Counted from the first letter of the stretch, positions 13,984 through 49,513 are shown. The stretch: 64,000 nucleotides of DNA from Candidatus Latescibacterota bacterium (GCA_965261395.1 OZ253462.1:5440001-5504000), one strand, 5' to 3'. Notes: generated by a model from the sequence alone, not told the origin. Made by a program: numbers and translations.

Positions 13984-14165
13984 AGTTTCCCCATTTGGAT
14001 AGCAAGAGCCGCATCCGCAAAAAAACTATAAAAATGTAGCGGGCCATGCTGCCTCGCTCAACAACTGCACTCATTGACCCTACCCGTCGTTTGTTATACT
14101 TTTTTGTGAAATGTATAACATCCATATTCCGCTATCGATGGATTAACCTAACAGAACGGAGAATC

Positions 14166-14399
14166 ATGGCATCGGCCCGCATATCGGCCAAAGGCTGGGT
14201 CGTCATTCCGGCACCGCTGCGCAAGAAATACCGCCTACAGCCCGGCGACCAAGTGCGTATTGTCGATTACGGCGGCGGCTTGGCCCTCGTGCCCGCCCTT
14301 GGCGATCCCATCGAAGAAACCCAAGGGATGCTCGCGGGGCCAACATCCCTAGTGGAAGCCCTGCTTTCCCAGCGCGCCGAGGATCGTCGGCTTGAATGA
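14166..14399 (+). CDS. vapB: AbrB/MazE/SpoVT-type antitoxin
   Basis: ISAKGWVVIPAPLRKKYRLQPGD swapped-hairpin signature; overlaps the downstream PIN gene. Confidence 0.85.
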   Translation: MASARISAKGWVVIPAPLRKKYRLQPGDQVRIVDYGGGLALVPALGDPIEETQGMLAGPTSLVEALLSQRAEDRRLE

Positions 14400-14808
14400 C
14401 CCCGGAGACCGCGTGCTCGATAGTTACGCGCTCTTAGCCTATCTGGAGAATGAAGTGGGTGCCCTTCAGGTTAAATCCCTGCTCAGCCAGGCAGAAACAG
14501 GCCCAAGCCGCCTGTGGATGTCCATCGTCAATTTGGGGGAAGTCCTCTATATCACTGAGCGTGAACGGGGCTTGGCCCACAGCCGCAATGTCCTAGCGGC
14601 TGTGGAGCAATTGCCGGTGGACATGGTCCTCGCCGACCGCGCCCATACTTTGTCTGCCGCCCATATCAAGGCCCGTTTCCCGCTCTCCTATGCCGATGCC
14701 TTCGCCGCCGCTCTGGCCCAAATCAAAGGTGTCCCTCTCGTGACCGGCGACGGAGAATTCAGCCGGGTCGAATCCCTCGTCGCCATCGAGTGGCTTCCTA
14801 GGCATTAG
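14392..14808 (+). CDS. vapC: PIN-domain VapC toxin
   Basis: VLDSYA, NLGE, LSYADA, LVTGDGEF. Confidence 0.9.
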   Translation: MNDPGDRVLDSYALLAYLENEVGALQVKSLLSQAETGPSRLWMSIVNLGEVLYITERERGLAHSRNVLAAVEQLPVDMVLADRAHTLSAAHIKARFPLSYADAFAAALAQIKGVPLVTGDGEFSRVESLVAIEWLPRH

Positions 14809-14866
14809 TTCGTTGGCAGTTCCGTGGGGCAGTCAGTTTCGACAATTTGAATCCATAGGTGGCAAT

Positions 14867-17629
14867 GTGTCTAGGGCACTGATTGGCTGCGCTCTGTTTA
14901 TCGCAATTCTGGTGGTTGGATGCGCCCCTTCGGAACAGCCGCAGTCGGCCTCAGTCCAATCCCCTGCTCACCTCTCCCCAACGGGTATGGCTGATAACCA
15001 CCCCGTGTTATTCGCCGATGTAGCGGCCCAAGTCGGCCTAGATTTCGTCAATCTCTCGGGGAAGGACGACCCGAGGCTTTTGGTGGAAACCACGGGCACC
15101 GGCGCGGCCTTTCTCGACTACGATAATGATGGCTGGCTGGACCTCTTTTTCGTCAACGGCACCTTGCTAGACGCTGATCCGCCCCAAGCGACCAACCGCC
15201 TCTTCCACAACGAACCCGACCCCAGCGCCCAAAGACACTTCCGCGAAGTCACCCGTCAAAGCGGCTTGCTATCCAAGGGTTGGGGCATGGGTTGCGCTAC
15301 TGGTGATATCGACAACGATGGCGATACCGACCTATTAGCGACCTATTGGGGTCCCAATCTGTTGTATCGCAATAACGGCGACAGCACCTTTGACGAGATC
15401 GCCGCTCAAGCCGGAGTGGACCACCCCGGTTGGGGCACCAGTGCGGCTTTTGCCGATTTGGATGGCGACGGCTGGCTGGACCTCTACGTGACCAACTACC
15501 TCCACATCGACCTAGACCATCCCCCCAAGGACGGCCAACCGTGCCAATACAAGGGACTGTCCGTACCGTGCGGACCACAGGGGGTTCCAGCCCAAGCCGA
15601 TGTGCTCTACCGCAACAGAGGCGACGGCACCTTCGCCGATATGAGTGCAAGCAGCGGCCTAGACCAGTGGAGCTATGCCGGTTTGGGCGTTGCGTTTGGC
15701 GACTTCGATAACGACGGCGATCTGGATATTTACGTTGCCAACGACAGCGAGCCCAATATGCTTTTGCGCAACGACGGCGACTGGTACTTCAGCGAAATCG
15801 GCCAATCAGCCGGGGCAGCCTATAGCGAGAGCGGGCGGCCCCAGGCCGGCATGGGGGTCCACAGCGGCGATTATGACAACGATGGCGACCTCGATTTATT
15901 TGTGACCAATTTCTCCGAAGACTACAATACCCTGTACCAGAACCAATCCCCGACGACGACTGACTCCATGTGCTTTGTCGATGTCTCGCACGCCACCGGC
16001 TTGAGTGCCGGCGACCGGCCTTATCTCGGCTGGGCGACCGCTTTCTGGGATTACGACAACAATGGCTGGCTGGATCTATATGTAATTAACGGCCACGTTT
16101 ATCCACAGTTGGGAGTACATGCTTCGGGGTTGACCTATCGACAGCGCAACCTGCTCTATCAAAATCAGCATGGGCACTTTATAGAAGTGGGCCGCCGGGC
16201 CGGAGCGGCTTGGCAGCTCGAAGCGGCCAGTCGCGCGGCGGCCCAAGGTGACTACGACAACGATGGCGACCTCGATCTAGCCGTGGTAAATCACAACGCA
16301 GCACCGACCCTGTTGCGCAACGAGGGAGGAAACTTCAATAACTGGCTGGGTCTTGAACTGGTGGGTCATGTCAGCAACCGGGATGGTATCGGTGCTAGGA
16401 TCTGGATTTTCACCGCCGATCAGGTGCAAATGAGAGAAGTGTTTCGGGGTTATGGTTTTCAAAGCCAACACGATCCTCGTGTGTTGATAGGACTAGGTGC
16501 GAACCAAACCGTAGATCGAGTCGAAATACACTGGCCATCGGGCTCTCGTCAAACAATTGCTGCACCGCCGGTGCGGCGCTACCTCAAAGTACACGAGGGC
16601 CGCGATGGCTTCGAGCAAGGACCGGCTATCCCCCCTCCCCAGAGCGAATCTCTTATCGCTTCGGCACCAACGCCGAACTGGAGCGCCTCTGATTTCGCGG
16701 CCCTTGGGAACCAATACTATCAGGCCGGACACTACGGTGAAGCCCACGCCGCCTTCTATCGGGCCTTGGCCTTGGATCCGATCCATAAGCTGGCCAACCT
16801 GGGCATGGGCACATTGCTCTACGCCGGCATGGGTGCAGCCAATGAGGCGCTTTCGTATGTGGAAGAGGCGGCCCGCCGCGATTCATCCTCGGCGGAGAGC
16901 TTTCTCGTTCTCGGCAAAGTCTATCTGGACTTGGAGCGGCCCGCGTTAGCTGCCCGGGCTTTGGAGCGGGTCGCCAGACTGCGGGCACAGGATTGGGAGG
17001 CGTACTTCTGGCTGGGTCGGGCCTATGAGCAAAGCAATCGTTTGACCGAAGCCACAAATGCGTTTGGCAACGCCACAAGGTGGGCACCTTGGGAACCCGA
17101 GCCGCTGTTGGCACTGGCACAGCTCTACGCAAGGCAGGGCAATGAAAAAGCGGCTGCGGCAGCAAACAAACGGTTTGCACGGTATCGCCGACTCGCGCAA
17201 CGCGTCGAATCCCTACAGTCCCAGATTGACCGCGAGCCGCAAAACGAAAAGGCCTTTTTAGATCTGGGGCTGGCGTATATGGAGCAAGGCAGACTGGAGC
17301 GGGCTGCAGCGCACTATCAAGGGATGGTAACACGAGCGCCGCAAAGTGCGCTTGGTCTGTACGGCCTTGGCCTCCTCTGCTTGCGCCGCAATGACCCCCA
17401 AGGTGCCCTCGGCTATTTGCATAAAGCAGCGATCTATTCACCAGATGACGCCGAGATTCGCGGTGCCTTGGGCCAGGCATATTTCCAGCTAGAGCGCTAC
17501 GACGAAGCCGTGGTGGAGTGGGAACAAATCGCGGACACAACCCGCATCGGCCGCATGTTGCAGCAAGCGCGTGCTCGAATAGCATCCGCAGCGGAAGGTC
17601 TCCCGCCCGATGCCAAAAGGGGCCGCTAG
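14867..17629 (+). CDS. CRTAC1-family lipoprotein (FG-GAP propeller + ASPIC/UnbV) with C-terminal TPRs
   Basis: Lipobox LVVGC, repeated DYDNDGxLDL, NRDGIGAR...IGLG...EIHWPSG, TPR helices; GTG 14867 after AGGTGG chosen over the track's 14813. Confidence 0.88.
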   Translation: MSRALIGCALFIAILVVGCAPSEQPQSASVQSPAHLSPTGMADNHPVLFADVAAQVGLDFVNLSGKDDPRLLVETTGTGAAFLDYDNDGWLDLFFVNGTLLDADPPQATNRLFHNEPDPSAQRHFREVTRQSGLLSKGWGMGCATGDIDNDGDTDLLATYWGPNLLYRNNGDSTFDEIAAQAGVDHPGWGTSAAFADLDGDGWLDLYVTNYLHIDLDHPPKDGQPCQYKGLSVPCGPQGVPAQADVLYRNRGDGTFADMSASSGLDQWSYAGLGVAFGDFDNDGDLDIYVANDSEPNMLLRNDGDWYFSEIGQSAGAAYSESGRPQAGMGVHSGDYDNDGDLDLFVTNFSEDYNTLYQNQSPTTTDSMCFVDVSHATGLSAGDRPYLGWATAFWDYDNNGWLDLYVINGHVYPQLGVHASGLTYRQRNLLYQNQHGHFIEVGRRAGAAWQLEAASRAAAQGDYDNDGDLDLAVVNHNAAPTLLRNEGGNFNNWLGLELVGHVSNRDGIGARIWIFTADQVQMREVFRGYGFQSQHDPRVLIGLGANQTVDRVEIHWPSGSRQTIAAPPVRRYLKVHEGRDGFEQGPAIPPPQSESLIASAPTPNWSASDFAALGNQYYQAGHYGEAHAAFYRALALDPIHKLANLGMGTLLYAGMGAANEALSYVEEAARRDSSSAESFLVLGKVYLDLERPALAARALERVARLRAQDWEAYFWLGRAYEQSNRLTEATNAFGNATRWAPWEPEPLLALAQLYARQGNEKAAAAANKRFARYRRLAQRVESLQSQIDREPQNEKAFLDLGLAYMEQGRLERAAAHYQGMVTRAPQSALGLYGLGLLCLRRNDPQGALGYLHKAAIYSPDDAEIRGALGQAYFQLERYDEAVVEWEQIADTTRIGRMLQQARARIASAAEGLPPDAKRGR

Positions 17630-17787
17630 AAGCTTGATAAGTCCTTAGAGGCGGTCCGCCCCAAAGCGAATTGCCAGCACCCGCTTTGGTGTACAGAGGT
17701 TACAATCTATATTCTCCCCTAGGGGAAGCGGCTTAATCCATCCCTGTTTTTCCCCTACTTCCGTCCGACCAAGACAAGGAGTGCCCC

Positions 17788-19947
17788 ATGGCAGGGCTTC
17801 TGTCCTTTTTCGTTTTTGCTATGCTGCTCAGTGCTGCGCACGTATTTGGTGCAACCGAATACCGCCTGGGCGGGATTAACGGCAACGATTGGCAGGCGGC
17901 CCTGACCGCAGAGAGCTTCTTCCAGATCCGGGATGCCGACGGCCAGCCACTGCGACAAGTGCCGGTGGGGATCTCGCCCTTTGGGGCGGGGGCCGACACG
18001 CTGGTCGATTTCTCCGGCACAGCGATCCAGCCCCGTTTGATTGACTCCTCCGTCAATATCGCCCGGGCCGATGTAGACGCCAGCAAGACCCAGATCCCCC
18101 TGCCCTATATGCCCGGTTCGAGAGTCCTTACCAATAATTGCGGTCAGGCGCAATTACACGCCAGCACGATCAAGCTAATGCTGGACGCCAATCCCGCTAC
18201 GGCCACTTTTCGCACCTTTGTGCAACGGGCTGGGGGCCGGCCTGGCGATGGCTTTACTTGGAGGGGGGCCGTGGTCTTTGATTTTGGCGGCGCGATCCCC
18301 ATCAATCGCATCCGCTTCTATCCCCGCCTGAGTCAGCGCGAAGACCGCCAACTGATCGAATCCCTGCGGGAACCCGCTTCGGATATCGAGCGCTTTGGCG
18401 AAGACAGCTTCCTAGCCAATTTCCTCGCTTGGTACGAGATCCGCACCGGCGACAATTCGGTCGTCTTTGCCCCAGATCCATGCAGCGGCACCAGCACCTT
18501 CCTCTTTGACAGTTCCAAGCGCGATTTAGGCGCTGTGGCCACCAGCAAGCGACGCACGGTCTTGGGCGACTTGCGGTGGGTGCGGAGCGGCGATCCACTG
18601 CTGACGGTGCTGAAATCCACCCATGAAAACCTCGACCCCGTCGTCGATCTACGCTTTCCCTCCCGCTCGACCCGCTGGCTCACCCTGCGCGCCTTCCCCC
18701 TGCGCGACTATGAAGTCGCCGAATTCGAAATCTACGGCGAGGGCTACGTCCCCGAGACCACCTACCTCACCCCCATCCTCGACTTCGGCCAAGCCGTTAC
18801 CTGGGGCAAAATACGCTGGGAAGGAGACGTGCCCGACGGTACCCGCATCGAGATTCGCACCCGCACCGGCCACACCCCCGATCCACTGCTCTACTTCGCG
18901 CCCAATATCAACGACGACCTCGTATCCATCACCCACGCCGAACACGCCAAAATTGATATCGCCGCCCGCCTAGTCCCCACCTACGACGCCGACCACTGGA
19001 GCTTCTGGTCGTCGCCCTACGAGTTTGCCGCCGGCCAACGCAACCCCAACCAGCCAGCCAGCACTTGGCAGGACGGCATCCTGCTGTTGTCGCCCGGCCC
19101 TAGCCGCTACATCCAAATCGCCATCAAGCTCTTCGCCAACTTCAACGTGGCCCCTCGCCTCGACCAACTCACCCTGCAGTTGAGCGAAACCCTGTCGGCG
19201 CAGGCGCTCGTCGGCGAGATCTGGCCTATTGAGGTCGCCTCCTTTGAACCGACCCCCTTTACGTATGTGGTCTTGCCCACCCTCAGCGACGACAATGCCG
19301 GCTTTGACCGCTTGGAAATCCGCACCCATGTCCGGGCGCACGCCGTGCGCGCGGTGCGCATCGATGGGCAGCCGGTGGACCTAGATCAGTTCGTCCCCCA
19401 CCTGCTCGACGATCGCCTCATCGTGTCCTTCCCACCGCTGACCGGCAGCGCCGACAGCTTCAAGCAGGTCGAGGTCGACTTCGACGTGCCAGTGCTGCGC
19501 TTTGGCACCGAGTTCAGTGGTTGGGTATTCAGCAACACGGATCCCGACCAGATCCGGCAGCGCATCGATCCGGGCAACGCCACGTTCCGCTTTGCTGGCG
19601 ACCTGCTGGCGGTCAACACGCCGGTGGGGGGCGACTTGCTGGTGGATGTGCGAGTACCCCAAGTGTTCACTCCCAACGACGACGGGATCAACGAGACCTT
19701 GACTATCGGCTACAAGCTGCGCGAGGTCACCGCCGACCGACCGATACAGGTGCGCATCTACGACTTGGCCGGTCGGCTGGTGGCACACCTGCCCGTGTTC
19801 AACGCCCGCAGCGGGGTCTTTATCCAAGAGTGGGATGGCCGCGACGAGCAGGACGCCTTAGTCCAACCCGGCACCTATATCTACGAATTGGCGCTCGATT
19901 CCGAGGAGCAGCACACCCAACGCGGCGTCTTTGCCGTCGCCTATTGA
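17788..19947 (+). CDS. Tandem array copy 1: secreted discoidin-like/FlgD-CTD protein
   Basis: Signal peptide, FDFGGAIPINRIRFYPR, EVAEFEIYGEGY, VFTPNDDGINE, WDGRD...PGTYIY, ends VFAVAY. Confidence 0.9.
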   Translation: MAGLLSFFVFAMLLSAAHVFGATEYRLGGINGNDWQAALTAESFFQIRDADGQPLRQVPVGISPFGAGADTLVDFSGTAIQPRLIDSSVNIARADVDASKTQIPLPYMPGSRVLTNNCGQAQLHASTIKLMLDANPATATFRTFVQRAGGRPGDGFTWRGAVVFDFGGAIPINRIRFYPRLSQREDRQLIESLREPASDIERFGEDSFLANFLAWYEIRTGDNSVVFAPDPCSGTSTFLFDSSKRDLGAVATSKRRTVLGDLRWVRSGDPLLTVLKSTHENLDPVVDLRFPSRSTRWLTLRAFPLRDYEVAEFEIYGEGYVPETTYLTPILDFGQAVTWGKIRWEGDVPDGTRIEIRTRTGHTPDPLLYFAPNINDDLVSITHAEHAKIDIAARLVPTYDADHWSFWSSPYEFAAGQRNPNQPASTWQDGILLLSPGPSRYIQIAIKLFANFNVAPRLDQLTLQLSETLSAQALVGEIWPIEVASFEPTPFTYVVLPTLSDDNAGFDRLEIRTHVRAHAVRAVRIDGQPVDLDQFVPHLLDDRLIVSFPPLTGSADSFKQVEVDFDVPVLRFGTEFSGWVFSNTDPDQIRQRIDPGNATFRFAGDLLAVNTPVGGDLLVDVRVPQVFTPNDDGINETLTIGYKLREVTADRPIQVRIYDLAGRLVAHLPVFNARSGVFIQEWDGRDEQDALVQPGTYIYELALDSEEQHTQRGVFAVAY

Positions 19948-20060
19948 AACTGGAAGCGTTGAAGAGATTTTGTTTCAAATCGCTTCAGCTTGGGTGTATA
20001 CTTAACCTTCGCAACCCTTGAACTGCACACTTGTATTGGTGACGCAGCAAGGAGGACGTT
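19948..20060 (+). repeat. Repeated intergenic spacer (copy A) with TATACT -10-like box and AAGGAGG RBS
   Basis: Near-identical to 22227-22337 and 24489-24600. Confidence 0.9.
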
Positions 20061-22226
20061 ATGGCAGGCATAGTGTTGCTGTGTTTTTGCGGCGTCTTGT
20101 TCGGTGCTGTGCCCGTGTTGGGGGGGACGGAATACCGTATAGGCGGGATCGATGGCAACCCCTGGCAGGCTATCCTAGGCGGGGAAAGTGCCTACCAAGC
20201 TTTTGCTGCTGACGGCGAAGTGGAGCGCCAAGTATCAGTGGGGGTTTCGCCCTTTGGGGCCGGGGCCGATACCTTGATCGACTTTTCCGGCACCACGATC
20301 CAACCCCGGCTCATTGACCCCAGCGTCAATATCGCCCGGGCCGATGTCGAAGCCGGCAGAACCACCATCCCCTTGCCCTATATCCCCGGCTCCAGAGTCC
20401 TCAGCACGGATCACTGTATTGCTTGGGGCAATTTTCAACCCTCGATCAAGCTAATGCTGGACGGCGATCCAACTACGGCCGCCTTTCGCACGTTTGTCCA
20501 GCGAGTCGGCTCGCCGCCGGGCGTGGGCTATACCTGGACCAATTCCGTGGTATTCGATTTTGGTGCTAGTGTGCCGATCAACCGCATCCGCTTCTTCCCC
20601 CGCCTGAGCCGGAGAGAGGATCACCAGTTAGTCGAGACTATGGACGCGCCCACGCCGGAGGTGGAGACCTTTGGCGAAGACAGCTTCCTGGCCAACTTCC
20701 TCGCTTGGTATGAAATCCGCACTGGCGATAACTCGGTCGTCTTTGCCCCGGACCCCTGCAGCGGTAGCGGCAGCCTCACCTGCAGCGTGTGTAGAGCGGG
20801 GATTTCCAGCGATGTAGCGACGAGCAAACGGCGCACCGTCTTAGGCGACTTGCGGTGGGTGCGCAATGGCGATCCGCTGCTGACGGTGCTGGAATCCACC
20901 CGCGAAAACCTCGACCCCATCGTCGATATGCGCTTTCCCACCCGCTCGACCCGCTGGCTCACGCTGCGCACCTTCCCCCTGCGCGACTATGAAATCGCCG
21001 AATTCGAAATCTACGGTGAAGGCTATGTCCCCGAGACCACCTACCTCACCCCCATCCTCGACTTCGGCCAAGCCGTTACCTGGGGCAAAATCCGCTGGGA
21101 AGGCGAAGTGCCCGCCGGCACCCGCATCGAGATTCGTACCCGCACCGGCCACACCCCCGACCCGCTGCTCTACTTCGCGCCCAATATCAACGACGAGCTT
21201 ATACCCATCACTCGCGCCCAATACGACGCAATCGACAGATCCGCTCAACTGCTGCCCACCTACGACGCCGACCACTGGAGCTTCTGGTCGTCGCCCTACG
21301 AGTTTGCCGCCGGCCAGCGCAACTCCGACCAGCCAGCTAGCGCCTGGCACGACGGGATCCTGCTGTTGTCGCCCGGCCCTAGCCGCTACATCCAAATCGC
21401 CATCAAGCTTTTTGCCGACTTCAACGTGGCACCCCGCCTCGACCAACTCACCTTGCAGTTGAGTGAAACCCTGTCGGCGCAGGCGCTCGTCGGCGAGATC
21501 TGGCCGATTGAGGTCGCCTCCTTTGAACCGATCCCCTTTACCTATGTGGTCTTGCCCACCCTCAGCGACGACAACGCCGGCTTCGACCGCTTGGAAATCC
21601 TCACCCATGTCCGGGTTCACGCGGTGCGCGCGGTGCGCATCGATGGCCAGCCAGTAGGCCTAGACCAGTTCGTCCCACAATTACTCGACGATCGCCTCAT
21701 CGTGTCCTTCCCACCGCTGACCGGCACCGCTGACAACTTCAAGCAGGTCGAGGTCGACTTCGACGTGCCGGTGTTGCGCTTTGGCACTGAGTTCAGCGGG
21801 TGGGTGTTCAGCAGCACCGATCCCGATCAGATCCGGCAGCGCATCGATCCGGGCAACGCCACGTTCCGCTTTGCTGGCGATTTGCTGGCGGTCAACACGC
21901 CGGTGGGCGGTGATCTGCTGGTGGATGTGCGAGTACCCCAGGTGTTCACTCCCAATGGCGACGGGATCAACGAGACCTTGCCTATCGCCTACAAGCTGCG
22001 CGAGGTCACCGCCGACCGAGCCGTGCAGGTGCGCATCTACGACTTGGCCGGTCGGCTGGTGGCGCACCTACCCGTGTTCAAGGCACGCAGCGGGGTCTTT
22101 GTCCAGCACTGGAACGGCCGCGACGAGCAGGACGCCTTGGTTCAGCCCGGCACCTATATCTACGAATTGACCCTTGATTCCGAGGAGCAATACACCCAAC
22201 AAGGCGTCTTTGCCGTCGCCTATTGA
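20061..22226 (+). CDS. Tandem array copy 2
   Basis: Highly similar to copies 1, 3 and 4; extra CxxC in the variable loop. Confidence 0.9.
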   Translation: MAGIVLLCFCGVLFGAVPVLGGTEYRIGGIDGNPWQAILGGESAYQAFAADGEVERQVSVGVSPFGAGADTLIDFSGTTIQPRLIDPSVNIARADVEAGRTTIPLPYIPGSRVLSTDHCIAWGNFQPSIKLMLDGDPTTAAFRTFVQRVGSPPGVGYTWTNSVVFDFGASVPINRIRFFPRLSRREDHQLVETMDAPTPEVETFGEDSFLANFLAWYEIRTGDNSVVFAPDPCSGSGSLTCSVCRAGISSDVATSKRRTVLGDLRWVRNGDPLLTVLESTRENLDPIVDMRFPTRSTRWLTLRTFPLRDYEIAEFEIYGEGYVPETTYLTPILDFGQAVTWGKIRWEGEVPAGTRIEIRTRTGHTPDPLLYFAPNINDELIPITRAQYDAIDRSAQLLPTYDADHWSFWSSPYEFAAGQRNSDQPASAWHDGILLLSPGPSRYIQIAIKLFADFNVAPRLDQLTLQLSETLSAQALVGEIWPIEVASFEPIPFTYVVLPTLSDDNAGFDRLEILTHVRVHAVRAVRIDGQPVGLDQFVPQLLDDRLIVSFPPLTGTADNFKQVEVDFDVPVLRFGTEFSGWVFSSTDPDQIRQRIDPGNATFRFAGDLLAVNTPVGGDLLVDVRVPQVFTPNGDGINETLPIAYKLREVTADRAVQVRIYDLAGRLVAHLPVFKARSGVFVQHWNGRDEQDALVQPGTYIYELTLDSEEQYTQQGVFAVAY

Positions 22227-22337
22227 AACTGGAAGCGTTGAAGAGATTTTGTTTCTAAACGATTAGCTGGGGTGTATACTTAATCTTCGTAACCCTTGAA
22301 TTGCACACTTGTATTGTGAAGCAGCAAGGAGGACGTT
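22227..22337 (+). repeat. Repeated intergenic spacer (copy B)
   Basis: AACTGGAAGCG...GTGTATACTTAA...GCAAGGAGGACGTT. Confidence 0.9.
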
Positions 22338-24488
22338 ATGGCAGGCATCGTGTTGCTGTGTTTTTGCAGCGTCTTGCTGGGTGCTGTGCCTGTGTTGGGG
22401 GGGACGGAATACCGCCTGGGCGGGCCCGATGGCAACCCTTGGCAGGCCGTCCTGGCCGGGGAAAGTGCCTACCAAGCTTTTGCTGCTGACGGCCAAGTTG
22501 AGCGTCAAGTATCGGTGGGGATTGCGCCCTTTGGCACGGGAGCCGATACGCTGGTTGATTTCTCCGGCACAGCCATCCAGCCCCGTTTGATTGACTCCTC
22601 CGTCAATATCGCCCGGGCCGATGTGGACGCCAGCAAGACCCAGATCCCCCTGCCCTATATGCCCGGTTCGAGAGTCCTTACCAATAGTTGCGGTCAGGCG
22701 CAAGGACATGCCAATACGATCAAGCTAATGCTGGACGCCAATCCCGCTACGGCCACCTTCCGCACCTTTGTGCAACGGGTCGGAGGCCGGCCTGGGGATG
22801 GCTTTTCTTGGAGGGGGGCTGTAGTCTTTGATTTTGGCGGCGCGATCCCCATCAATCGCATCCGCTTCTATCCCCGCCTGAGTCAGCGCGAAGACCGCCA
22901 ACTGATCGAATCCCTGCGGGAACCCGCTTCGGATATCGAGCGCTTTGGCGAAGACAGCTTCCTAGCCAATTTCCTCGCTTGGTACGAGATCCGCACCGGC
23001 GATAACTCGGTCGTCTTTGCCCCAGATCCATGCAGCGGCACTGGCCGTAACAGCGCCTACATCTACAACGACGTTGTGGCGACGAGTAAGCGACGCACCG
23101 TCTTGGGCGACTTGCGGTGGGTGCGGAGCGGCGATCCGCTGCTGACGGTGTTGGAATCCACCCACGAAAACCTCGACCCCGTCGTCGATCTACGCTTCCC
23201 CGTCCGCTCGGTCCGCTGGCTCACCCTGCGCGCCTTCCCCCTGCGCGACTATGAAGTCGCCGAATTCGAAATCTACGGCGACGGCTATGTCCCCGAGACG
23301 ACCTACCTCACCCCTATCCTCGACTTCGGACAAGCCGTCACCTGGGGTAAAATACGCTGGGAAGGCGACATGCCCGACGGCACCCGCATCGAGATTCGCA
23401 CCCGCACCGGCCACACCCCCGACCCGCTGCTCTACTTTGCACCCAATATCAACGACGACCTCGTACCCATCACCCACGCCGAACAAGCCAAAATCGATAT
23501 CGCCGCTCAACTGCTGCCCGTCTACGATGCCGACCACTGGAGCTTCTGGTCGTCGCCCTACGACTTTGCCGCCGGACAGCGCAACTCCGACCAGCCGGCC
23601 AACGCCTGGCAGGACGGAATGCTGCTTTTGTCGCCCGGTCCCAGCCGCTATATCCAAATCGCCATCAAGCTCTTTGCCAACTTCAACGTGGCACCTCGCA
23701 TCGACCAACTCACCTTGCAGTTGAGCGAAACCCTGTCGGCGCAGGCGCTCGTCGGTGAGATCTGGCCGATTGAGGTCGCCTCCTTTGAACCCACTCCCTT
23801 TACGTATGTGGTTTTGCCCACCCTCAGCGACGACAACGCCGGCTTTGACCGCTTGGAAATCTTCACTCACGTCCAAGCGCACGCGGTGCGCTCGGTGCGC
23901 ATCGACGGCCAGCCCGTCGACCTAAACCAGTTCGTCCCCCACCTGCTCGACGATCGCCTCATCGTGTCCTTTCCGCCGCTGACCGGCAGCGCCGACAGCT
24001 TCAAGCAGGTCGAGGTCGACTTCGACGTGCCAGTGCTGCGCTTTGGCACCGAGTTCAGCGGGTGGGTGTTCAGCAGCACGGATCCCGATCAGATCCGGCA
24101 GCGCATCGATCCAGGCAACGCCACGTTCCGCTTTGCCGGCGACTTGCTGGCCGTCAGCACGCCGGTAGGGGGCGACCTATTGGTGGATGTGCAGGTGCCT
24201 CAGATGTTCACGCCCAATGGCGATAGGATCAACGAGACTTTGACCATCACCTACAAGCTGCGCGAGGTCACGGCTGATCGACCGGTGCAGGTGCGCATCT
24301 ACGACTTGGCGGGTCGGCTGGTGGCGCACCTACCCGTGTCCAACGCCCGCAGCGGGGTCTTTGTCCAGGAGTGGAACGGCCGCGACGAGCAGGACGCCTT
24401 GGTTCAGCCCGGCACCTATATCTACGAATTGACCCTTGATTCCGAAGAGCAATACACCCAACAAGGCGTCTTTGCCGTCGCCTATTGA
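22338..24488 (+). CDS. Tandem array copy 3 (chimeric)
   Basis: N-terminus like copies 2/4, body like copy 1. Confidence 0.9.
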   Translation: MAGIVLLCFCSVLLGAVPVLGGTEYRLGGPDGNPWQAVLAGESAYQAFAADGQVERQVSVGIAPFGTGADTLVDFSGTAIQPRLIDSSVNIARADVDASKTQIPLPYMPGSRVLTNSCGQAQGHANTIKLMLDANPATATFRTFVQRVGGRPGDGFSWRGAVVFDFGGAIPINRIRFYPRLSQREDRQLIESLREPASDIERFGEDSFLANFLAWYEIRTGDNSVVFAPDPCSGTGRNSAYIYNDVVATSKRRTVLGDLRWVRSGDPLLTVLESTHENLDPVVDLRFPVRSVRWLTLRAFPLRDYEVAEFEIYGDGYVPETTYLTPILDFGQAVTWGKIRWEGDMPDGTRIEIRTRTGHTPDPLLYFAPNINDDLVPITHAEQAKIDIAAQLLPVYDADHWSFWSSPYDFAAGQRNSDQPANAWQDGMLLLSPGPSRYIQIAIKLFANFNVAPRIDQLTLQLSETLSAQALVGEIWPIEVASFEPTPFTYVVLPTLSDDNAGFDRLEIFTHVQAHAVRSVRIDGQPVDLNQFVPHLLDDRLIVSFPPLTGSADSFKQVEVDFDVPVLRFGTEFSGWVFSSTDPDQIRQRIDPGNATFRFAGDLLAVSTPVGGDLLVDVQVPQMFTPNGDRINETLTITYKLREVTADRPVQVRIYDLAGRLVAHLPVSNARSGVFVQEWNGRDEQDALVQPGTYIYELTLDSEEQYTQQGVFAVAY

Positions 24489-24600
24489 AACTGGAAGCGT
24501 GGAAGAAATTTTGTTTCTAAACGATTAGCTGGGGTGTATACTTAATCTTCGTAACCCTTGAATTGCACACTTGTATTGGTGAAGCAGCAAGGAGGACGTT
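24489..24600 (+). repeat. Repeated intergenic spacer (copy C)
   Basis: Near-identical to copy B. Confidence 0.9.
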
Positions 24601-26757
24601 ATGGCAGGCATCGTGTTGCTGTGTTTTTGCGGCGTCTTGTTGGGTGCTGTGCCCGTGTTGGGAGGAACGGAATACCGTCTAGGCGGGATCGGTGGCAACC
24701 CTTGGCAGGTCCTCCTGGCCGGGGAAAGCGCCTACCAAGCCTTTGCTGCTGACGGCGAAGTGGAGCGCCAAGTATCCGTGGGGATTGCGCCCTTGGGGGC
24801 CGGGGCCGATACCCTGATCGACTTTTCTGGCACCTCAATTCAGCCTCGGCTCATTGACCCCAGCGTCAATATCGCCCGGGCCGATGTCGAAGCCGGTAGG
24901 GCGACCATCCCCTTGCCCTATATCCCCGGCTCTAGGGTACTCAACAACAATAGTTGCTGGTCCTGGGGCAATATGCAACCCTCGATCAAGCTAATGCTGG
25001 ACGGCGATCCGACCACGGCCGCCTTTCGCACCTTTGTCCAACGGGTCGGCTCGCCGCCGGGCGTGGGCTATGGCTGGGGCAATTCCGTGATATTCGATTT
25101 TGGAACTGGTGTGCCGATCAACCGCATCCGCTTCTATCCCCGCCTGAGCCGCCGGGAAGACCGCCCGTTAATCGAGACCATGCGCCCTCCCACCCCCGCC
25201 GTCGAAACCTTTGGCCAAGACAGCTTCCTCGACAATTTCCTCGCCTGGTACGAGATCCGCAGCGGCGATAATTCGATTGTCTTTGCCAATGACTCATGCA
25301 ATGCCAACGACTACGGCAGCGGCGGAGATCGCAATATCAACGTTGTGGCCACCAGCAAGCGGCGCACAGTCCTAGGCGACTTGACCTGGGTGCGCAATGG
25401 CGACCCCAGACTGACGGTGCTAAAAACCACCCGCGAAAACCTCGACCCGGTCGTCGATCTGCGCTTCCCCGTCCGCTCGACCCGCTGGCTCACCCTGCGC
25501 GCCTTCCCCCTGCGCGACTATGAAGTCGCCGAATTCGAAATCTACGGCGACGGCTACGTCCAAGAGGCCACCTACCTCACCCCCATCCTCGACTTCGGAC
25601 AAGCCGTCACCTGGGGCAAAATACGCTGGGAAGGTGAGGTGCCCGACGGCACCCGCATCGAAATCCGCACCCGCACCGGCCACACCCCCGATCCACTGCT
25701 CTACTTCGCCCCCAATACCAACGACGACCTCGTATCCATCACCCGCGCCCAATACGACGCAATCGATATCGCTGTTCAATTACTTCCCATCTACGATGCC
25801 GACCACTGGAGCTTCTGGTCGTCGCCCTACGAGTTTGCCGCCGGTCAACGCAATCCCAATCAGCCGGCCAGCGACTGGCACGACGGGATCCTGCTGTTGT
25901 CGCCCGGCCCCAGCCGCTACATCCAAATAGCCATCAAGCTCTTCGCCGACTTCCATGTGGCACCCCGCCTCGACCAACTCACCCTGCAGTTGAGTGAAAC
26001 CCTGTCGGCGCAGGCGCTCGTCGGCGAGATCTGGCCGATTGAGGTCGCCTCCTTTGAACCCACCCCCTTTACCTATGTGGTTCTGCCCACCCTCAGCGAC
26101 GACAACGCCGGCTTCGACCGCTTGGAAATCCTCACCCACGTCCGGGCGCACGGCGTGCGCGCGGTGCGCATCGATGGCCAGCCAGTAGGCCTAGACCAGT
26201 TCGTCCCGCAATTACTCGACGATCGCCTGATCGTGTCCTTCCCACCGCTGACCGGCACCGCCGACAACTTCAAGCAGGTCGAGGTCGACTTCGACGTGCC
26301 GGTGTTGCGCTTTGGCACTGAGTTCAGCGGGTGGGTGTTCAGCAGCACCGATCCCGACCAGATCCGGCAGCGCATCGATCCAGGCAACGCCACGTTCCGC
26401 TTTGCCGGCGACTTGCTGGCCGTCAACACGCCGGTGGGGGGCGACTTGCTGGTAGATGTGGAGGTGCCTGAGGTGTTCACCCCCAACGGCGACGGGATCA
26501 ACGAGACCTTGCCCATCGCCTACAAACTGCGCGAAGTCACGGCTGACCGGCCGGTGCAGGTGCGCATCTACGACTTGGCGGGTCGGCTGGTGGCGCACCT
26601 ACCCGTGTTCAACGCCCGCAGCGGGGTCTTCATCCAAGAGTGGGATGGCCGCGACGAGCAGGACGCCTTGGTTCAGCCCGGCACCTATATCTACGAATTG
26701 ACCCTTGATTCCGAGGAGCAATACACCCAACAAGGCGTCTTTGCCGTCGCTTACTAG
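24601..26757 (+). CDS. Tandem array copy 4
   Basis: Closest to copy 2; ends GCTTACTAG rather than GCCTATTGA. Confidence 0.9.
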   Translation: MAGIVLLCFCGVLLGAVPVLGGTEYRLGGIGGNPWQVLLAGESAYQAFAADGEVERQVSVGIAPLGAGADTLIDFSGTSIQPRLIDPSVNIARADVEAGRATIPLPYIPGSRVLNNNSCWSWGNMQPSIKLMLDGDPTTAAFRTFVQRVGSPPGVGYGWGNSVIFDFGTGVPINRIRFYPRLSRREDRPLIETMRPPTPAVETFGQDSFLDNFLAWYEIRSGDNSIVFANDSCNANDYGSGGDRNINVVATSKRRTVLGDLTWVRNGDPRLTVLKTTRENLDPVVDLRFPVRSTRWLTLRAFPLRDYEVAEFEIYGDGYVQEATYLTPILDFGQAVTWGKIRWEGEVPDGTRIEIRTRTGHTPDPLLYFAPNTNDDLVSITRAQYDAIDIAVQLLPIYDADHWSFWSSPYEFAAGQRNPNQPASDWHDGILLLSPGPSRYIQIAIKLFADFHVAPRLDQLTLQLSETLSAQALVGEIWPIEVASFEPTPFTYVVLPTLSDDNAGFDRLEILTHVRAHGVRAVRIDGQPVGLDQFVPQLLDDRLIVSFPPLTGTADNFKQVEVDFDVPVLRFGTEFSGWVFSSTDPDQIRQRIDPGNATFRFAGDLLAVNTPVGGDLLVDVEVPEVFTPNGDGINETLPIAYKLREVTADRPVQVRIYDLAGRLVAHLPVFNARSGVFIQEWDGRDEQDALVQPGTYIYELTLDSEEQYTQQGVFAVAY

Positions 26758-26848
26758 TCCCGCGTCCCAGCCATAAAGAGTAGAATTCTGGCGCTGAGGC
26801 TCTCGGCTCAGATTGCAAGAATAGAACACGCCCAACGATCTCTCAGGT

Positions 26849-28858
26849 CTATCGCCCCTGCAATCGCGCCAACGCGCGCTGGGCTTTGGCGTACTCAGGG
26901 GCCAAGCTCAGGGTCAGGCGGTAGAACTCGGCCGCCTTGTCGAATCGGCCCAAGTCGTGGTAGGCCGCCCCCAAATTAAAGGCGATCAAGTGATTGCCGG
27001 GCGCGGCTTTTAACGCTATGGCAAAATAATCAACCGCCCGCTCCAACGCCCCTTGCCGGACCTCGATCAAGCCCAGCTCATTGGCCGCCTGCGCCCGCAC
27101 CTTTTCCCCGCTTAGCGCCGCTTCAAAGGCTTCCTGGGTCCGCTCTGTTGCCCCCATTCTCTTATAAACCCTCCCCAGCGCCAGAAAAACCGCCGCGTCG
27201 GCCTTTTTTGCCAAAACTCGGCGGTAGTGCTCCACCGCTTGCTCGTATCGTCCCGTGGCCCGGTACAGAGCCGCCAAGTTGAGGTGCAATCCCCGATCGT
27301 CGGGCGCTTGCGCCAAGGCCTGCCGATAAACTGCCTCGGCTTCGTCGTAGCGCCTTAGCGCCACCAGCGCCGCACCCAGATTATGGTGGGCTCGCAGGTA
27401 ATTTGGATCGAGCTGCACTGCGGTCCTAAAGGAGCGCGCCGCAATCGCGTACTGCCCCCGTTGGGCTTGGACGCGCCCCAGATCAAAGTGTACTTCCGCG
27501 TCGGCCAAAGAGTCGGCCGGCCGCAGGCCAGCGTTGGCAGCTATCCCCAGCAAAACGACAAAAGCCAAGCCGATCCCCAAGGGACGCCACTGCCGGTCCT
27601 GCCCCTGCTGCACCAGCCAGACTAGGGCGTACCCGGCAAATAGTAGCAGCAGCGGCACTAGGGGCAGGCGATAGCGGCCGGTGATAAAAAAGAGCAGCAG
27701 CGAGGCGCTGTACGCGCCGGTGCAGAGCAGCAGTAAACCCGCCTGAGGCCGGTGTCGCCAAGCCAGCACCATGCCCACAGCGGCTAAAGGTCCCAGCAGT
27801 CCAAAAGGAAAGGCGAAGTGATGGATTTTCCACAGCAAGACGCTCATCAGCCAAGAATAGATGCGGGCGAAGTACACGTCTTGGTTGCGCTTGATTTCCT
27901 CTCCTCGCGCCAACAAGAACGCCTTGTACCCCAACAACCGCACAAAATCCCCGGGCGCACCGGCGATCCAGTCGCTAGCTTGCCGGTAGAAGTAGGCCGA
28001 GCGCTCGGCGTACCCCACTTGACCCGCGGCCAGCGGCTGCTCCATTAAGGCCTCCCATTCCGGCCCTGGGCGGATCCCTACCAGACGGTTGTAATCGGGA
28101 TGGTTGCCCAAGTAGAAATTCACTCCGCCGTTCCAGGACAAGGGGATGAACTCGCCGCTGACCGCCCAATTCCTCGCCGTCACTACGCCAACCACTGAGC
28201 AGGCGGTCGCCGCAAAAAGCAGGCACCAGACCAGCTTGCTCCGCGCTACTCGCTCAGCACTCCTCCAGTACCATAGACAGGCGCAAGGAGCCAACAGGGC
28301 CGCATTGGGCACGGCGACTATGGCCAAGCCTTGGACGAGGCCCGAGACTAGAGCCTGTCCCCATCCCCGGCCGGGCTGGAGCAGGACAAAGAGCAACAGG
28401 AGATTGAGGAAAACGGCCAGCGCAGTGGGCAGCAGCTCGCCGGCAAAATAGATGGAAGGTCCGTATAAACAGGCCATGATTCCAGCGAGGAGACCAACTC
28501 GGGTGCCAAACACCTGCCGGCCGATGCCAAAGACCAAGGCACAAGAGGCCGCTGCCAAGAGGAACTGGACAAGTCGGGGCGTCCAGAACAAGTCGCCGGA
28601 AACGGCGTAGATCAAGGCGAGAAAATAGGGGTATAGAGGCGGCTGCCAAAAGGGCTTGTCCCCCACCCAGGACACCTCGGCGAGCTGCCGCGCCTGAGCC
28701 ACATAGGAGTGGGCATCCACTACCGGTGCCGAGAAAAAGGGATTGTCTTGACTGTGCCCCAAATAGACCAGACGCACGACCAACGCCAAAAGAAAAAGAC
28801 CACCTGCGACCTTCAATTCGCGTCGGCTCATCGAGGCGGCCGAGGGCGGGTTATTCAT
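26849..28858 (-). CDS. GT-C (PMT/ArnT, GT39-like) membrane glycosyltransferase with C-terminal TPRs
   Basis: VDAHSY loop, QPPLYPYFLA, NGGVNFYLGN, GRYRLPL, multiple TMs then TPRs; 8-bp overlap with the upstream gene. Confidence 0.8.
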   Translation of the reverse strand: MNNPPSAASMSRRELKVAGGLFLLALVVRLVYLGHSQDNPFFSAPVVDAHSYVAQARQLAEVSWVGDKPFWQPPLYPYFLALIYAVSGDLFWTPRLVQFLLAAASCALVFGIGRQVFGTRVGLLAGIMACLYGPSIYFAGELLPTALAVFLNLLLLFVLLQPGRGWGQALVSGLVQGLAIVAVPNAALLAPCACLWYWRSAERVARSKLVWCLLFAATACSVVGVVTARNWAVSGEFIPLSWNGGVNFYLGNHPDYNRLVGIRPGPEWEALMEQPLAAGQVGYAERSAYFYRQASDWIAGAPGDFVRLLGYKAFLLARGEEIKRNQDVYFARIYSWLMSVLLWKIHHFAFPFGLLGPLAAVGMVLAWRHRPQAGLLLLCTGAYSASLLLFFITGRYRLPLVPLLLLFAGYALVWLVQQGQDRQWRPLGIGLAFVVLLGIAANAGLRPADSLADAEVHFDLGRVQAQRGQYAIAARSFRTAVQLDPNYLRAHHNLGAALVALRRYDEAEAVYRQALAQAPDDRGLHLNLAALYRATGRYEQAVEHYRRVLAKKADAAVFLALGRVYKRMGATERTQEAFEAALSGEKVRAQAANELGLIEVRQGALERAVDYFAIALKAAPGNHLIAFNLGAAYHDLGRFDKAAEFYRLTLSLAPEYAKAQRALARLQGR

Positions 28859-33205: not shown

Positions 33206-33209
33206 TTTG

Positions 33210-49366: not shown

Positions 49367-49513
49367 GTGATCCTCCTAATGTGCTCGTTGCAGTTAGACT
49401 TATCTGGGAAAGATAGGCCAAGCAACGACTAGCTCCAACAGCCGCGCACCCCGCAGTTGTCCCACCGTCCGAACCGTTTTATAATGGGGCCATCCCCAAT
49501 GGAGTGCAGCGAC

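What the first reader, a model, noticed from the sequence alone, without database searches (positions are those of the whole stretch)
17788..26757. Four-gene tandem array with Cys-anchored hypervariable loops on a near-constant scaffold (antibody-like repertoire candidate)
Seen: four ~720-aa secreted paralogs spaced 2273, 2277 and 2263 bp apart, nearly identical over most of their length. Divergence is concentrated in short N-domain segments. Loop 1: TNNCGQAQLHAS / STDHCIAWGNFQP / TNSCGQAQGHAN / NNNSCWSWGNMQP. Loop 2: AGGRPGDGFTWRGA / VGSPPGVGYTWTNS / VGGRPGDGFSWRGA / VGSPPGVGYGWGNS. Loop 3 varies in length and is largely unalignable: CSGTSTFLFDSSKRDLGAV (from 18481), CSGSGSLTCSVCRAGISSDV (20757), CSGTGRNSAYIYNDVV (23031), CNANDYGSGGDRNINVV (25297). 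Loops 1 and 3 each contain a Cys conserved in all four copies. Inference: a disulfide staples the loops into one variable binding surface on a discoidin/F5-8-like beta-sandwich, giving diversified receptors or adhesins (glycan, host or phage-evasion specificity).
Basis: partly seen in the sequence, partly recalled or inferred. Interest (0 to 1): 0.85.

Follow-up and report, generated by a model that had tools for sequence, protein, structure and literature searches.

The report
Tandem secreted lectin-like paralogs, stable loops
Four neighbouring genes encode secreted surface proteins whose sugar-binding-type head differs in a few loops, but each loop version is conserved between related species, so this is a small fixed panel of binding proteins and not an antibody-like variable repertoire.

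Summary
The four ORFs, their spacing, the three divergent segments and the two invariant Cys are all in the window as described. The head (about residues 86-322) models as a CBM32/discoidin-type beta-sandwich (VIA Z 13.0, rmsd 2.2 A, 124 of 127 residues of 4a42_A). The tail is a type IX secretion C-terminal domain (Pfam CHU_C; PorU-CTD Z 12.5). The two Cys co-occur in 55 of 62 homologues and are jointly absent in 6, which fits a disulfide.

The "hypervariable, antibody-like" reading fails. The same loop sets recur in other species' genomes. Among orthologues, loop omega is 0.05-0.39; between head types it is 0.5-0.9. The scaffold is not near-constant DNA (dS 0.3-0.5). It is held by purifying selection plus within-genome gene conversion. 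No retroelement or template repeat lies nearby.

The array belongs to a family of about 140 paralogues, 4.9% of a 6.55 Mb Candidatus Latescibacterota genome. Best reading: a germline panel of six stable head types on a shared stalk. Ligands are unknown, and loop clustering could not be measured.

The parts
17788..19947 (+). Copy 1, 719 aa, head type T1 (loop 1 TNNCGQAQLHAS)
   Evidence: ORF. CHU_C 46.5 bits and FlgD_ig 28.7 bits. Positional orthologues in 6 of 6 syntenic arrays first compared, and in G031 and G032.
20061..22226 (+). Copy 2, 721 aa, head type T2 (loop 3 carries an extra C-x-x-C)
   Evidence: The same loop set occurs in G010, G001, G011, G012 and G018.
22338..24488 (+). Copy 3, 716 aa, head type T3, a close relative of T1
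   Evidence: Gene nt about 517-651 are identical to copy 1. dS is 0.063 over residues 163-232. An orthologue with 97% head identity lies at the same array position in G031.
24601..26757 (+). Copy 4, 718 aa, head type T4
   Evidence: It is the last gene of the array in 5 other species first compared, and in G031 and G032.
17788..17853 (+). Putative Sec signal peptide of copy 1 (residues 1-22)
   Evidence: Hydrophobic N-terminus read from the translation and predicted as a helix at 2-15. No signal-peptide predictor was run.
18043..18753 (+). CBM32/discoidin-like head of copy 1 (residues about 86-322), roughly 100 residues longer than solved CBM32 modules
   Evidence: N-domain model pLDDT 79.4, pTM 0.77. 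VIA Z 13.0, rmsd 2.2 A, 124 of 127 residues of 4a42_A, model range 69-299 (+19 in full numbering). Foldseek top hits are CBM32, galactose oxidase domain 1 and lectinolysin. No Pfam F5_F8_type_C hit at E<=0.01.
18130..18168 (+). Loop 1 of copy 1 (residues 115-127, contains C118)
   Evidence: Modelled as the start of a helix at 118-131 with pLDDT 86-96. Omega 0.07 within types and 0.70 between types.
18229..18270 (+). Loop 2 of copy 1 (residues 148-161)
   Evidence: Omega 0.05 within types and 0.49 between types.
18481..18537 (+). Loop 3 of copy 1 (C232 and the clade-specific insertion)
   Evidence: pLDDT below 50 over full-length residues 236-257. Omega 0.25 within types and 0.92 between types.
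18754..19629 (+). Beta-sandwich stalk of copy 1 (residues 323-614). It is the core of the module shared by about 140 own-genome ORFs.
   Evidence: 140 of 3879 ORFs of 300 aa or more match residues 262-620 at E<1e-5. No Pfam family. Beta-rich model with generic Ig/FN3-like matches.
19630..19944 (+). Type IX secretion C-terminal domain of copy 1 (residues 615-719)
   Evidence: CHU_C above its cut-off. VIA: PorU CTD 6za2_B Z 12.5, rmsd 2.4 A, 97 residues, 24% identity; PorZ 5m11 Z 10.5. FlgD Ig-like by profile against PDB sequences, E 4.2e-6.
19948..20060 (+). Spacer 1 (113 bp). Spacers 2 (22227-22337) and 3 (24489-24600) are near-identical. Each ends in AAGGAGG 6 nt before the ATG.
   Evidence: Printed. 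The promoter and terminator scan was at chance level.
14813..17629 (+). Upstream flank: FG-GAP/ASPIC-UnbV protein with TPR repeats, conserved beside the array in other species
   Evidence: Pfam. The same kind of ORF lies next to the first array gene in G010, G001, G011 and G012.
26849..28867 (-). Downstream flank: PMT_2-type membrane glycosyltransferase with TPR repeats, conserved beside the array
   Evidence: Pfam. A homologous ORF of about 677 aa lies next to the last array gene in G010, G001, G011 and G012.

Best explanation
The region is a tandem array of four old paralogues of one lineage-specific family of secreted cell-surface proteins in a Candidatus Latescibacterota genome.

Each protein has five parts: an N-terminal leader; a small beta subdomain; a divergent CBM32/discoidin-type beta-sandwich head, enlarged by insertions and probably stapled by a C118-C232 disulfide; a beta-sandwich stalk of about 290 residues; and a type IX secretion C-terminal domain.

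The three segments that differ between copies are type-specific parts of the head. They changed in bursts after duplication and were then frozen. Six head types (T1, T2, T2b, T3, T4, Tb1) persist across species, and different species combine them differently at two loci. The stalk and C-terminal domain are kept alike within a genome by purifying selection and gene conversion.

Inferred function: a germline-encoded panel of lectin-like binders, most likely for glycans, displayed or released through the type IX system, each with its own fixed specificity. Shown here: the architecture, the fold, the evolutionary pattern and the presence of secretion machinery. Inferred only: the disulfide, ligand binding by these loops, carbohydrate as the ligand, and surface display.
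For: Architecture: CHU_C and FlgD_ig are above their cut-offs in 4 of 4 copies. The C-terminal domain matches the PorU and PorZ CTDs at Z 12.5 and 10.5. The head matches CBM32 modules at Z 13.0, rmsd 2.2 A, 124 of 127 residues (Foldseek list).

Secretion machinery in the same genome: PorU 618 bits (cut-off 420); SprA 594.9 bits with neighbouring pieces (cut-off 200); a PorV-like gene adjacent to porU (150 bits).

Cys pair: 55 of 62 homologues have both, 6 have neither, and 1 is a truncated fragment.

Stability of loops: identical or near-identical loop sets in other assemblies and species. Within-type omega is 0.07, 0.05 and 0.25, against 0.70, 0.49 and 0.92 between types. For orthologues defined by position, loop omega is 0.25 and 0.39.

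Concerted evolution: median C-terminal dS is 0.338 for different types in the same genome (47 pairs), 0.442 for the same type in different genomes (64 pairs) and 0.484 for different types in different genomes (267 pairs). Head dS is 0.706 for different types in the same genome and 0.298 for the same type in different genomes. A conversion tract joins copies 1 and 3.

Independent assemblies: contigs of three DNA-type runs from three studies cover all 30 bins at 95% identity or more. Exact pieces cover the loop-coding parts of copies 2 and 4.

CBM32 precedent: in CBM32 modules, variable-length loops at the apex of a conserved sandwich form the sugar site (PMC5291390, passages read).
Against: No Pfam F5_F8_type_C or CBM32 sequence match for the four copies at E<=0.01, and no PDB sequence match for the head. 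Membership of the fold class rests on a predicted model.

Loop 3 is modelled at pLDDT below 50. No coordinates were available, so neither the disulfide nor the clustering of the loops was measured.

Head types were defined partly from the loops, which makes the within-type loop omega partly circular. The position-defined orthologues give higher values (0.25 and 0.39), from few sites.

PorV is below its curated cut-off. No PorP/SprF match was found, though that search's controls did not ring either.

No ligand, expression or localisation data exist. The RNA-library contigs do not prove transcription.
Confidence: 0.6

Rival explanations
1. Antibody-like or otherwise actively diversified repertoire. 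The loops are hypervariable and continually diversified by positive selection or a dedicated mutagenic mechanism, on a constant scaffold.
For: Loop columns are far more variable than the rest among the four copies (44 of 50 against 132 of 654). Between-type loop omega is 0.49-0.92, against 0.11-0.16 elsewhere. Some single pairs exceed 1, on 7-13 synonymous sites.
Against: The same loop sets recur across species. Within-type loop omega is 0.05-0.39. Only six head types were seen in the 9 genomes compared. The only RVT_1 reverse transcriptase in the genome is about 3.1 Mb away. Every blastn match of the loop-coding DNA lies inside the six paralogues, so there is no template repeat. Contigs of three studies carry the same loop sequences, although contigs hide rare variants.
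Confidence: 0.05
2. Same architecture and same stable panel, but the heads bind proteins, lipids or host matrix (as eukaryotic discoidin domains do), or mediate cell-cell adhesion, rather than free or polymer glycans.
For: The galactose-binding-like fold also gave high Z for non-lectin members: BIRC6 at Z 11.9, IFT25 at 11.8 and APC10 at 10.4. The head has about 100 extra residues and no recognisable sugar-site motif. The neighbouring genes are FG-GAP/ASPIC and TPR proteins, not glycoside hydrolases.
Against: The best and most numerous structural matches are sugar-binding CBM32 modules. The B-type loops are rich in Trp, Tyr and Phe, which is typical of sugar platforms; that point is established knowledge, not tested here.
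Confidence: 0.22
3. The loop differences carry no distinct function. They are relaxed surface loops that drifted after duplication, and the array only provides gene dosage.
For: Loop 3 is a low-confidence, possibly disordered insertion, absent from the more distant paralogues. Between-type omega stays below 1.
Against: Within a type the loops are as constrained as the scaffold (omega 0.13 against 0.10-0.12). T2 and T2b keep their own loops even where the flanking head sequence has been homogenised within a genome (G011 and G018 pairs). Array composition varies by type between species.
Confidence: 0.1
4. Assembly artefact: strain alleles of one gene were collapsed into a false tandem array.
For: Short-read contigs break up inside the array, and no single contig spans it.
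Against: The window lies in a single 6.55 Mb contig. Syntenic arrays of 1-4 genes with the same flanks occur in seven other genomes: the five first compared, G010, G001, G011, G012 and G018, plus G031 and G032. G031 has four genes in the order T1-Tb1-T3-T4. The copies differ by dS 0.3-0.5, far more than strain alleles would.
Confidence: 0.02

Closest known systems
Family 32 carbohydrate-binding modules (CBM32; F5/8 type C, galactose-binding-domain-like fold), e.g. the Clostridium perfringens GH89, GH31 and NanJ modules
   Same: Same beta-sandwich core (Z 13.0, rmsd 2.2 A, 124 of 127 residues of 4a42_A; Z 10-12 for many others). In CBM32, specificity also resides in loops of variable length at one end of a conserved sandwich, and several divergent copies can sit side by side (PMC5291390, passages read).
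   Different: There is no sequence-level match. The head is about 237 residues, against 127-150 for solved modules. It has a helix at 118-131, a 181-214 insertion and the loop-3 insertion. It is not attached to a glycoside hydrolase. The copies are separate genes, not modules of one enzyme. A probable disulfide links two of the variable segments.
Type IX secretion system cargo proteins with a conserved C-terminal domain (CHU_C / type B sorting domain; PorU- and PorZ-like CTD)
   Same: CHU_C is above its Pfam cut-off in 4 of 4 copies. The CTD fold matches PorU and PorZ. PorU and SprA are present in the genome above their cut-offs.
   Different: The TIGR04131 type B model scores 29.1 bits, below its 35-bit cut-off. 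No PorP/SprF partner was found with TIGR03519, a search whose controls also stayed silent. The organism is Latescibacterota, not Bacteroidota. Secretion was not tested.
Diversity-generating retroelement targets and other programmed hypervariable receptors (the class implied by 'antibody-like')
   Same: Variable residues concentrated in short segments of a ligand-binding fold on an otherwise conserved protein.
   Different: No reverse transcriptase lies nearby, and there is no template repeat. The variable segments are in the N-terminal head. Each variant is fixed and conserved between species.
Multigene surface-protein families under concerted evolution with selectively maintained variable regions (general pattern; recalled, no paper consulted)
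   Same: The conserved part is more alike within a genome than between orthologues, while the head types are older than the species.
   Different: There is no evidence of phase or antigenic variation, expression switching or silent cassettes. All copies are intact ORFs, each with its own ribosome-binding site.

Membership tests
CBM32 / F5/8 type C (galactose-binding-domain-like) | Beta-sandwich (jelly-roll) core superimposable on solved members | tested here: met
   Predicted head (pLDDT 79.4) against 4a42_A: Z 13.0, rmsd 2.2 A, 124 of 127 residues. 311 of 990 aligned chains reach Z>=8, and the top ones are mostly CBM32.
CBM32 / F5/8 type C (galactose-binding-domain-like) | Match to the family's sequence profile (PF00754 / PF22633) | tested here: not met
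   No such hit at E<=0.01 in any of the 4 copies. The profile of alignment A4 finds no CBM32 chain in the PDB at E<=10. The distant paralogue at 30674-33388 does hit PF00754 (32.9 bits).
CBM32 / F5/8 type C (galactose-binding-domain-like) | Carbohydrate bound by apical loops; structural Ca2+ site | not testable with these tools
   No model coordinates are returned and there is no binding assay.
Type IX secretion cargo | C-terminal sorting domain | tested here: met
   CHU_C 45.9-48.0 bits (cut-off 27) in 4 of 4 copies. PorU CTD Z 12.5 and PorZ CTD Z 10.5. TIGR04131 scores only 29.1 bits against a cut-off of 35.
Type IX secretion cargo | Secretion machinery encoded in the same genome | tested here: met
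   PorU 618.4 bits (cut-off 420). SprA 473.7 bits, 594.9 with its neighbours (cut-off 200). PorV-like 150.1 bits, below the 250 cut-off but adjacent to porU. GldK, GldL, GldM and GldN were not searched.
Type IX secretion cargo | PorP/SprF-type partner expected for type B domains | tested here: inconclusive
   TIGR03519 gave no match, but it rang in none of the 14 control genomes either.
Type IX secretion cargo | N-terminal Sec signal peptide | not tested
   A hydrophobic N-terminus is visible in the translation. No predictor was run.
Diversity-generating retroelement target | Nearby reverse transcriptase and a template repeat of the variable region | tested here: not met
   There is one RVT_1 match in the genome, at 2.31 Mb, about 3.1 Mb from the array. 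All blastn matches of the loop-coding DNA lie inside the six close paralogues.
Hypervariable / antibody-like repertoire | Loops differ between closely related genomes at orthologous genes, with sustained omega above 1 | tested here: not met
   Loop sets are conserved across species. Within-type omega is 0.05-0.25. Positional orthologues give 0.25 and 0.39.

The most novel reading that the evidence does not exclude
The array is the youngest visible part of a genome-wide modular receptor system. About 140 genes (4.9% of the genome) share one stalk plus secretion domain that is kept uniform by gene conversion. The heads are exchangeable, selectively protected cassettes: six disulfide-stapled CBM32-like types here, and other heads elsewhere. 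Species reshuffle these cassettes between loci. That would make it a germline-encoded recognition panel of unusual size for a bacterium, with selection holding loop identity against homogenisation.
Probability: 0.25. Interest if true: 0.6.

Novelty: new variant of a known kind. Interest (0 to 1): 0.35.

Why it matters
The proteins and their stalk module carry no annotation: every named cluster member is 'hypothetical protein'. Pfam does not detect the head. The family nevertheless takes up about 5% of a 6.55 Mb genome.

The array gives a clean natural experiment on how binding specificity evolves. Six head types sit on one scaffold, with burst-then-freeze change in three short segments, and gene conversion acts on everything except those segments.

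If the heads are lectins, the panel would define which glycans this uncultured lineage recognises. It would also offer a compact scaffold for specificity engineering. It does not open a new class of diversity-generating mechanism.

Tried and rejected
- Measuring the Cys118-Cys232 distance and the clustering of the loops: not possible, because structure prediction returns no coordinates and /data holds no model files.
- Full-length model: only pLDDT 71.1. Its Foldseek list was generic Ig/FN3-like chains, so the head was folded alone.
- Profile search of PDB sequences with alignment A4: only FlgD, PorU and C5a-peptidase C-terminal matches, and none for the head.
- ESM Atlas for the stalk (residues 323-615): unnamed clusters at scores of 0.91 or less, so no lead.
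- Promoter and terminator scan of 17500-27000: 1 and 9 sites against shuffle means of 2.6 and 8.0, so nothing usable.
- hhalign of A4 against the 904-aa neighbour: it aligned only from about residue 284 onward, so it gave no sequence link between the head and a Pfam-recognised F5/8 domain.
- Literature: 'sponge' + 'Latescibacteria' + 'type IX secretion' gave 0 papers. 'FlgD Ig-like' / 'FG-GAP' / 'sponge' gave nothing relevant in the listing. 'Latescibacter' + 'sponge' + 'symbiont' + 'adhesi' gave 6 papers. I read passages of PMC8163846, which does not mention this family, discoidin or type IX secretion. Its supplements were not seen and may list such genes.
- Read laying used assembled contigs only. 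They cannot show rare loop variants, transcript ends or expression. Short joints with 20-23 letters on one side (table 5) are what paralogous repeats would give, and were not used.
- PorP/SprF was not found, but the controls were silent.

Full report
**What is there**

The window holds four same-strand ORFs at 17788-19947, 20061-22226, 22338-24488 and 24601-26757 (719, 721, 716 and 718 aa). Start-to-start spacings are 2273, 2277 and 2263 bp. They are separated by three nearly identical spacers of 111-113 bp, each ending in AAGGAGG six bases before the ATG.

Copies 2, 3 and 4 are 81, 89 and 81% identical to copy 1 in protein. In the three segments, 44 of 50 alignment columns vary, against 132 of 654 other mature columns. 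That is a post hoc test, because the segments were chosen for being variable.

Three qualifications apply:
- The scaffold is not near-constant DNA. Pairwise DNA identity is 80-88%. Whole-gene dS is 0.33-0.48 with omega 0.18-0.26. Residues 331-726 of the alignment have dS 0.28-0.37 and omega 0.10-0.18. These are old paralogues under purifying selection.
- Loops 1 and 2 have only two states, copies 1 and 3 against copies 2 and 4. Only loop 3 differs in all four copies.
- Further variable stretches lie at residues 34-48, 95-97, 186-198 and 379-392.

**Architecture**

Pfam sees only the C-terminus: CHU_C at 45.9-48.0 bits and FlgD_ig at 27.2-28.9 bits, both with cut-off 27, in 4 of 4 copies.

A full-length AlphaFold2 model was mediocre (pLDDT 71.1). 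Its C-terminal domain (residues 615-719) still superimposes on the C-terminal domains of the type IX secretion proteins PorU (6za2_B: Z 12.5, rmsd 2.4 A, 97 residues, 24% identity) and PorZ (5m11: Z 10.5).

The head folded alone (residues 20-331, with 62 aligned homologues) gave pLDDT 79.4 and pTM 0.77. It matches CBM32 / F5-8 type C modules. The best match is CpGH89 CBM32-6 (4a42_A): Z 13.0, rmsd 2.2 A, 124 of 127 residues, over full-length residues 88-318. The Foldseek list is likewise dominated by CBM32, galactose oxidase domain 1 and lectinolysin.

The head spans about 237 residues, against 127-150 in solved modules. The excess is a helix at 118-131 that starts at the loop-1 Cys, an insertion at 181-214, and loop 3. 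Loop 3 is modelled at pLDDT below 50 (full-length 236-257).

It is not supported by sequence: there is no PF00754 hit and no PDB sequence hit for the head.

**The Cys pair**

The structure tool returns no coordinates, so I could not measure a distance. I tested co-occurrence instead. In the 62-sequence alignment A4, 55 sequences have both Cys and 6 have neither. The one remaining sequence is a 171-aa fragment that ends before the second site. Among 13 own-genome paralogues the same both-or-neither pattern holds. This fits a disulfide but does not prove one.

**Secretion**

The same genome encodes three type IX components:
- PorU at 618.4 bits (cut-off 420).
- A PorV-like gene directly beside porU at 150.1 bits, below its 250 cut-off.
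- SprA at 594.9 bits with neighbouring pieces (cut-off 200).

A PorP/SprF model found nothing, but it rang in no control genome either. Export through type IX secretion is therefore plausible and untested.

**The test of 'hypervariable'**

A database search found 414 homologues at E<=1e-3 among 8000 scored candidates. In an alignment of the four copies with 58 of the closest ones, each window copy's loop set recurs identically or nearly so in other assemblies. For example, the copy-3 loop-3 string occurs in 10 of the 62 rows.

I then fetched the syntenic locus and a second locus from six other species-level genomes of the genus. The array lies between the same FG-GAP/TPR gene and the same PMT_2/TPR gene in G010, G001, G011 and G012. 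Array size and composition by genome:

| Genome | Genes in array | Head types in order |
|---|---|---|
| G000 (this window) | 4 | T1-T2-T3-T4 |
| G031 | 4 | T1-Tb1-T3-T4 |
| G010 | 3 | T1-T2-T4 |
| G001 | 3 | T1-T2-T4 |
| G011 | 2 | T1-T4 |
| G012 | 2 | T1-T4 |
| G032 | 2 | T1-T4 |
| G018 | 1 | T1 |

Six head types account for all 34 genes compared, and the loops follow the type.

Pooled Nei-Gojobori estimates:

| Region | Omega within a type, across species | Omega between types |
|---|---|---|
| Loop 1 | 0.07 | 0.70 |
| Loop 2 | 0.05 | 0.49 |
| Loop 3 | 0.25 | 0.92 |
| Rest of the protein | 0.10-0.12 | 0.11-0.16 |

I had defined the types partly from the loops, so I repeated the estimate with orthologues defined only by position in the array. 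Loops then give omega 0.25 (first gene, 6 species) and 0.39 (last gene, 5 species; few sites). The rest of the head gives 0.16 and 0.08. A tree built without the loop columns still recovers the T1 clade (support 0.996) and the T4 clade (0.999).

The loops therefore changed in bursts after duplication and have since been conserved. That is the opposite of a continually diversifying repertoire.

**Why the scaffold looks constant**

Median dS by region and pair class:

| Pair class | Pairs | Residues 330-719 | Head (residues 60-261) |
|---|---|---|---|
| Different type, same genome | 47 | 0.338 | 0.706 |
| Same type, different genome | 64 | 0.442 | 0.298 |
| Different type, different genome | 267 | 0.484 | 0.706 |

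Extreme cases are the G008 pair (C-terminal dS 0.018, head dS 0.361) and the G018 trio. The C-terminal tree groups partly by genome, while the head tree groups by type. Within the window, copies 1 and 3 are identical over gene nt about 517-651, with dS 0.063 over residues 163-232.

So gene conversion homogenises the stalk and the secretion domain within a genome, while the head types persist across species. T2 and T2b keep their own loops even where the surrounding head sequence groups by genome (G011 and G018 pairs). That argues selection protects the loops.

**Mechanisms excluded**

- The only RVT_1 reverse transcriptase in the genome is about 3.1 Mb away.
- Every blastn match of the loop-coding DNA lies inside the six close paralogues, so there is no template repeat.
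- Mis-assembly is unlikely. The window lies in a single 6.55 Mb contig. Syntenic arrays exist in other genomes. Contigs from three DNA-type runs of three studies cover all 30 bins at 95% identity or more, and exact pieces cover the loop-coding parts of copies 2 and 4.
- These are assembled contigs, so rare variants would be hidden.
- Pieces from one RNA library lie on copies 1, 2 and 4. This is only a weak hint of expression.

**Wider context**

The window lies at 5,440,001-5,504,000 of the genome. Its close relatives are MAGs titled Candidatus Latescibacterota; some are labelled Gemmatimonadota.

The array is a small part of a very large family. 140 of 3879 ORFs of 300 aa or more match residues 262-620 at E<1e-5, and 152 match residues 262-719. 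Only 13 share this head strongly (E<1e-30). The 140 ORFs total 323 kb, or 4.9% of the genome, in 58 clusters.

Six more family candidates lie in this window (30674-33388, 33210-35942, 35945-38674, 38705-40825, 41830-43692, 49457-51352). They are interleaved with FG-GAP/ASPIC genes.

The family-wide module begins inside the last strands of the head, at about residue 284. The head itself is confined to this genus among the genomes searched: 18 of 18 same-genus genomes have it, against 0 of 12 genomes from other families of the class, at E<=1e-20. Only 133 clusters in 1.84 billion representatives reach E<=1e-3.

**Comparison with known systems**

The closest known things are CBM32 modules and type IX secretion cargo. 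In CBM32, variable-length apical loops of a conserved sandwich make the sugar site (PMC5291390, passages).

This case differs in five ways:
- The head is a much enlarged, sequence-unrecognisable version of the fold.
- Two of its variable segments are probably linked by a disulfide.
- The variants are separate tandem genes rather than modules of one enzyme.
- The proteins belong to a 140-member family.
- The scaffold evolves in concert while the heads do not.

I found no description of the family in three literature searches or in passages of PMC8163846. Supplements were closed.

**Verdict**

The antibody-like reading is not supported. I rate it a new variant of a known kind, with interest 0.35.

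Noticed in passing
whole genome G000; in the window also 30674-33388(-), 33210-35942(-), 35945-38674(-), 38705-40825(-), 41830-43692(-), 49457-51352(+): 140 ORFs (323 kb, 4.9% of the genome, 58 clusters) share the stalk plus type IX C-terminal module with the array genes but carry other N-terminal heads. They are often interleaved with FG-GAP/ASPIC-UnbV genes. The ORFs at 33210-35942 and 35945-38674 had no Pfam family at E<=1e-5, and their family membership was not checked individually.
   Followed up: partly
window 26849-28867 (-): A PMT_2-type membrane glycosyltransferase with TPR repeats sits next to the last array gene here and in G010, G001, G011 and G012. Loop 3 of several head types is Ser/Thr-rich. 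Whether this enzyme glycosylates the neighbouring proteins is open.
   Followed up: no
window 20757-20816 (copy 2, loop 3); same in all T2/T2b orthologues: Loop 3 of types T2 and T2b carries an extra conserved C-x-x-C (TCSVC / TCAEC / TCSEC), in addition to the invariant Cys pair. This could be a second disulfide or a metal site.
   Followed up: no
G000:C1:544086-548514 (L003, L005): A second locus holds a tandem pair of the same subfamily (types Tb1 and T2b). Pairs also occur at that locus in G010, G011, G012, G008 and G018, with a single gene in G001. Head types move between the two loci in different species.
   Followed up: partly
window 14046-14399 (+) and 14392-14808 (+): Overlapping MazE-type antitoxin (29.2 bits) and PIN-domain toxin (66.6 bits) genes lie just upstream of the FG-GAP/TPR gene.
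   Followed up: partly
window 51374-53407 (-): A 677-aa protein matches DUF6785 (415.8 bits) and DUF6784 (87.9 bits).
   Followed up: no
It lies in the 181-214 insertion between the strands INRIRFYPR and WYEIRTG. By order along the chain it falls where CBM32-1 of CpGH31 has its third ligand-perturbed region; that is inference only, from passages read.
   Followed up: no
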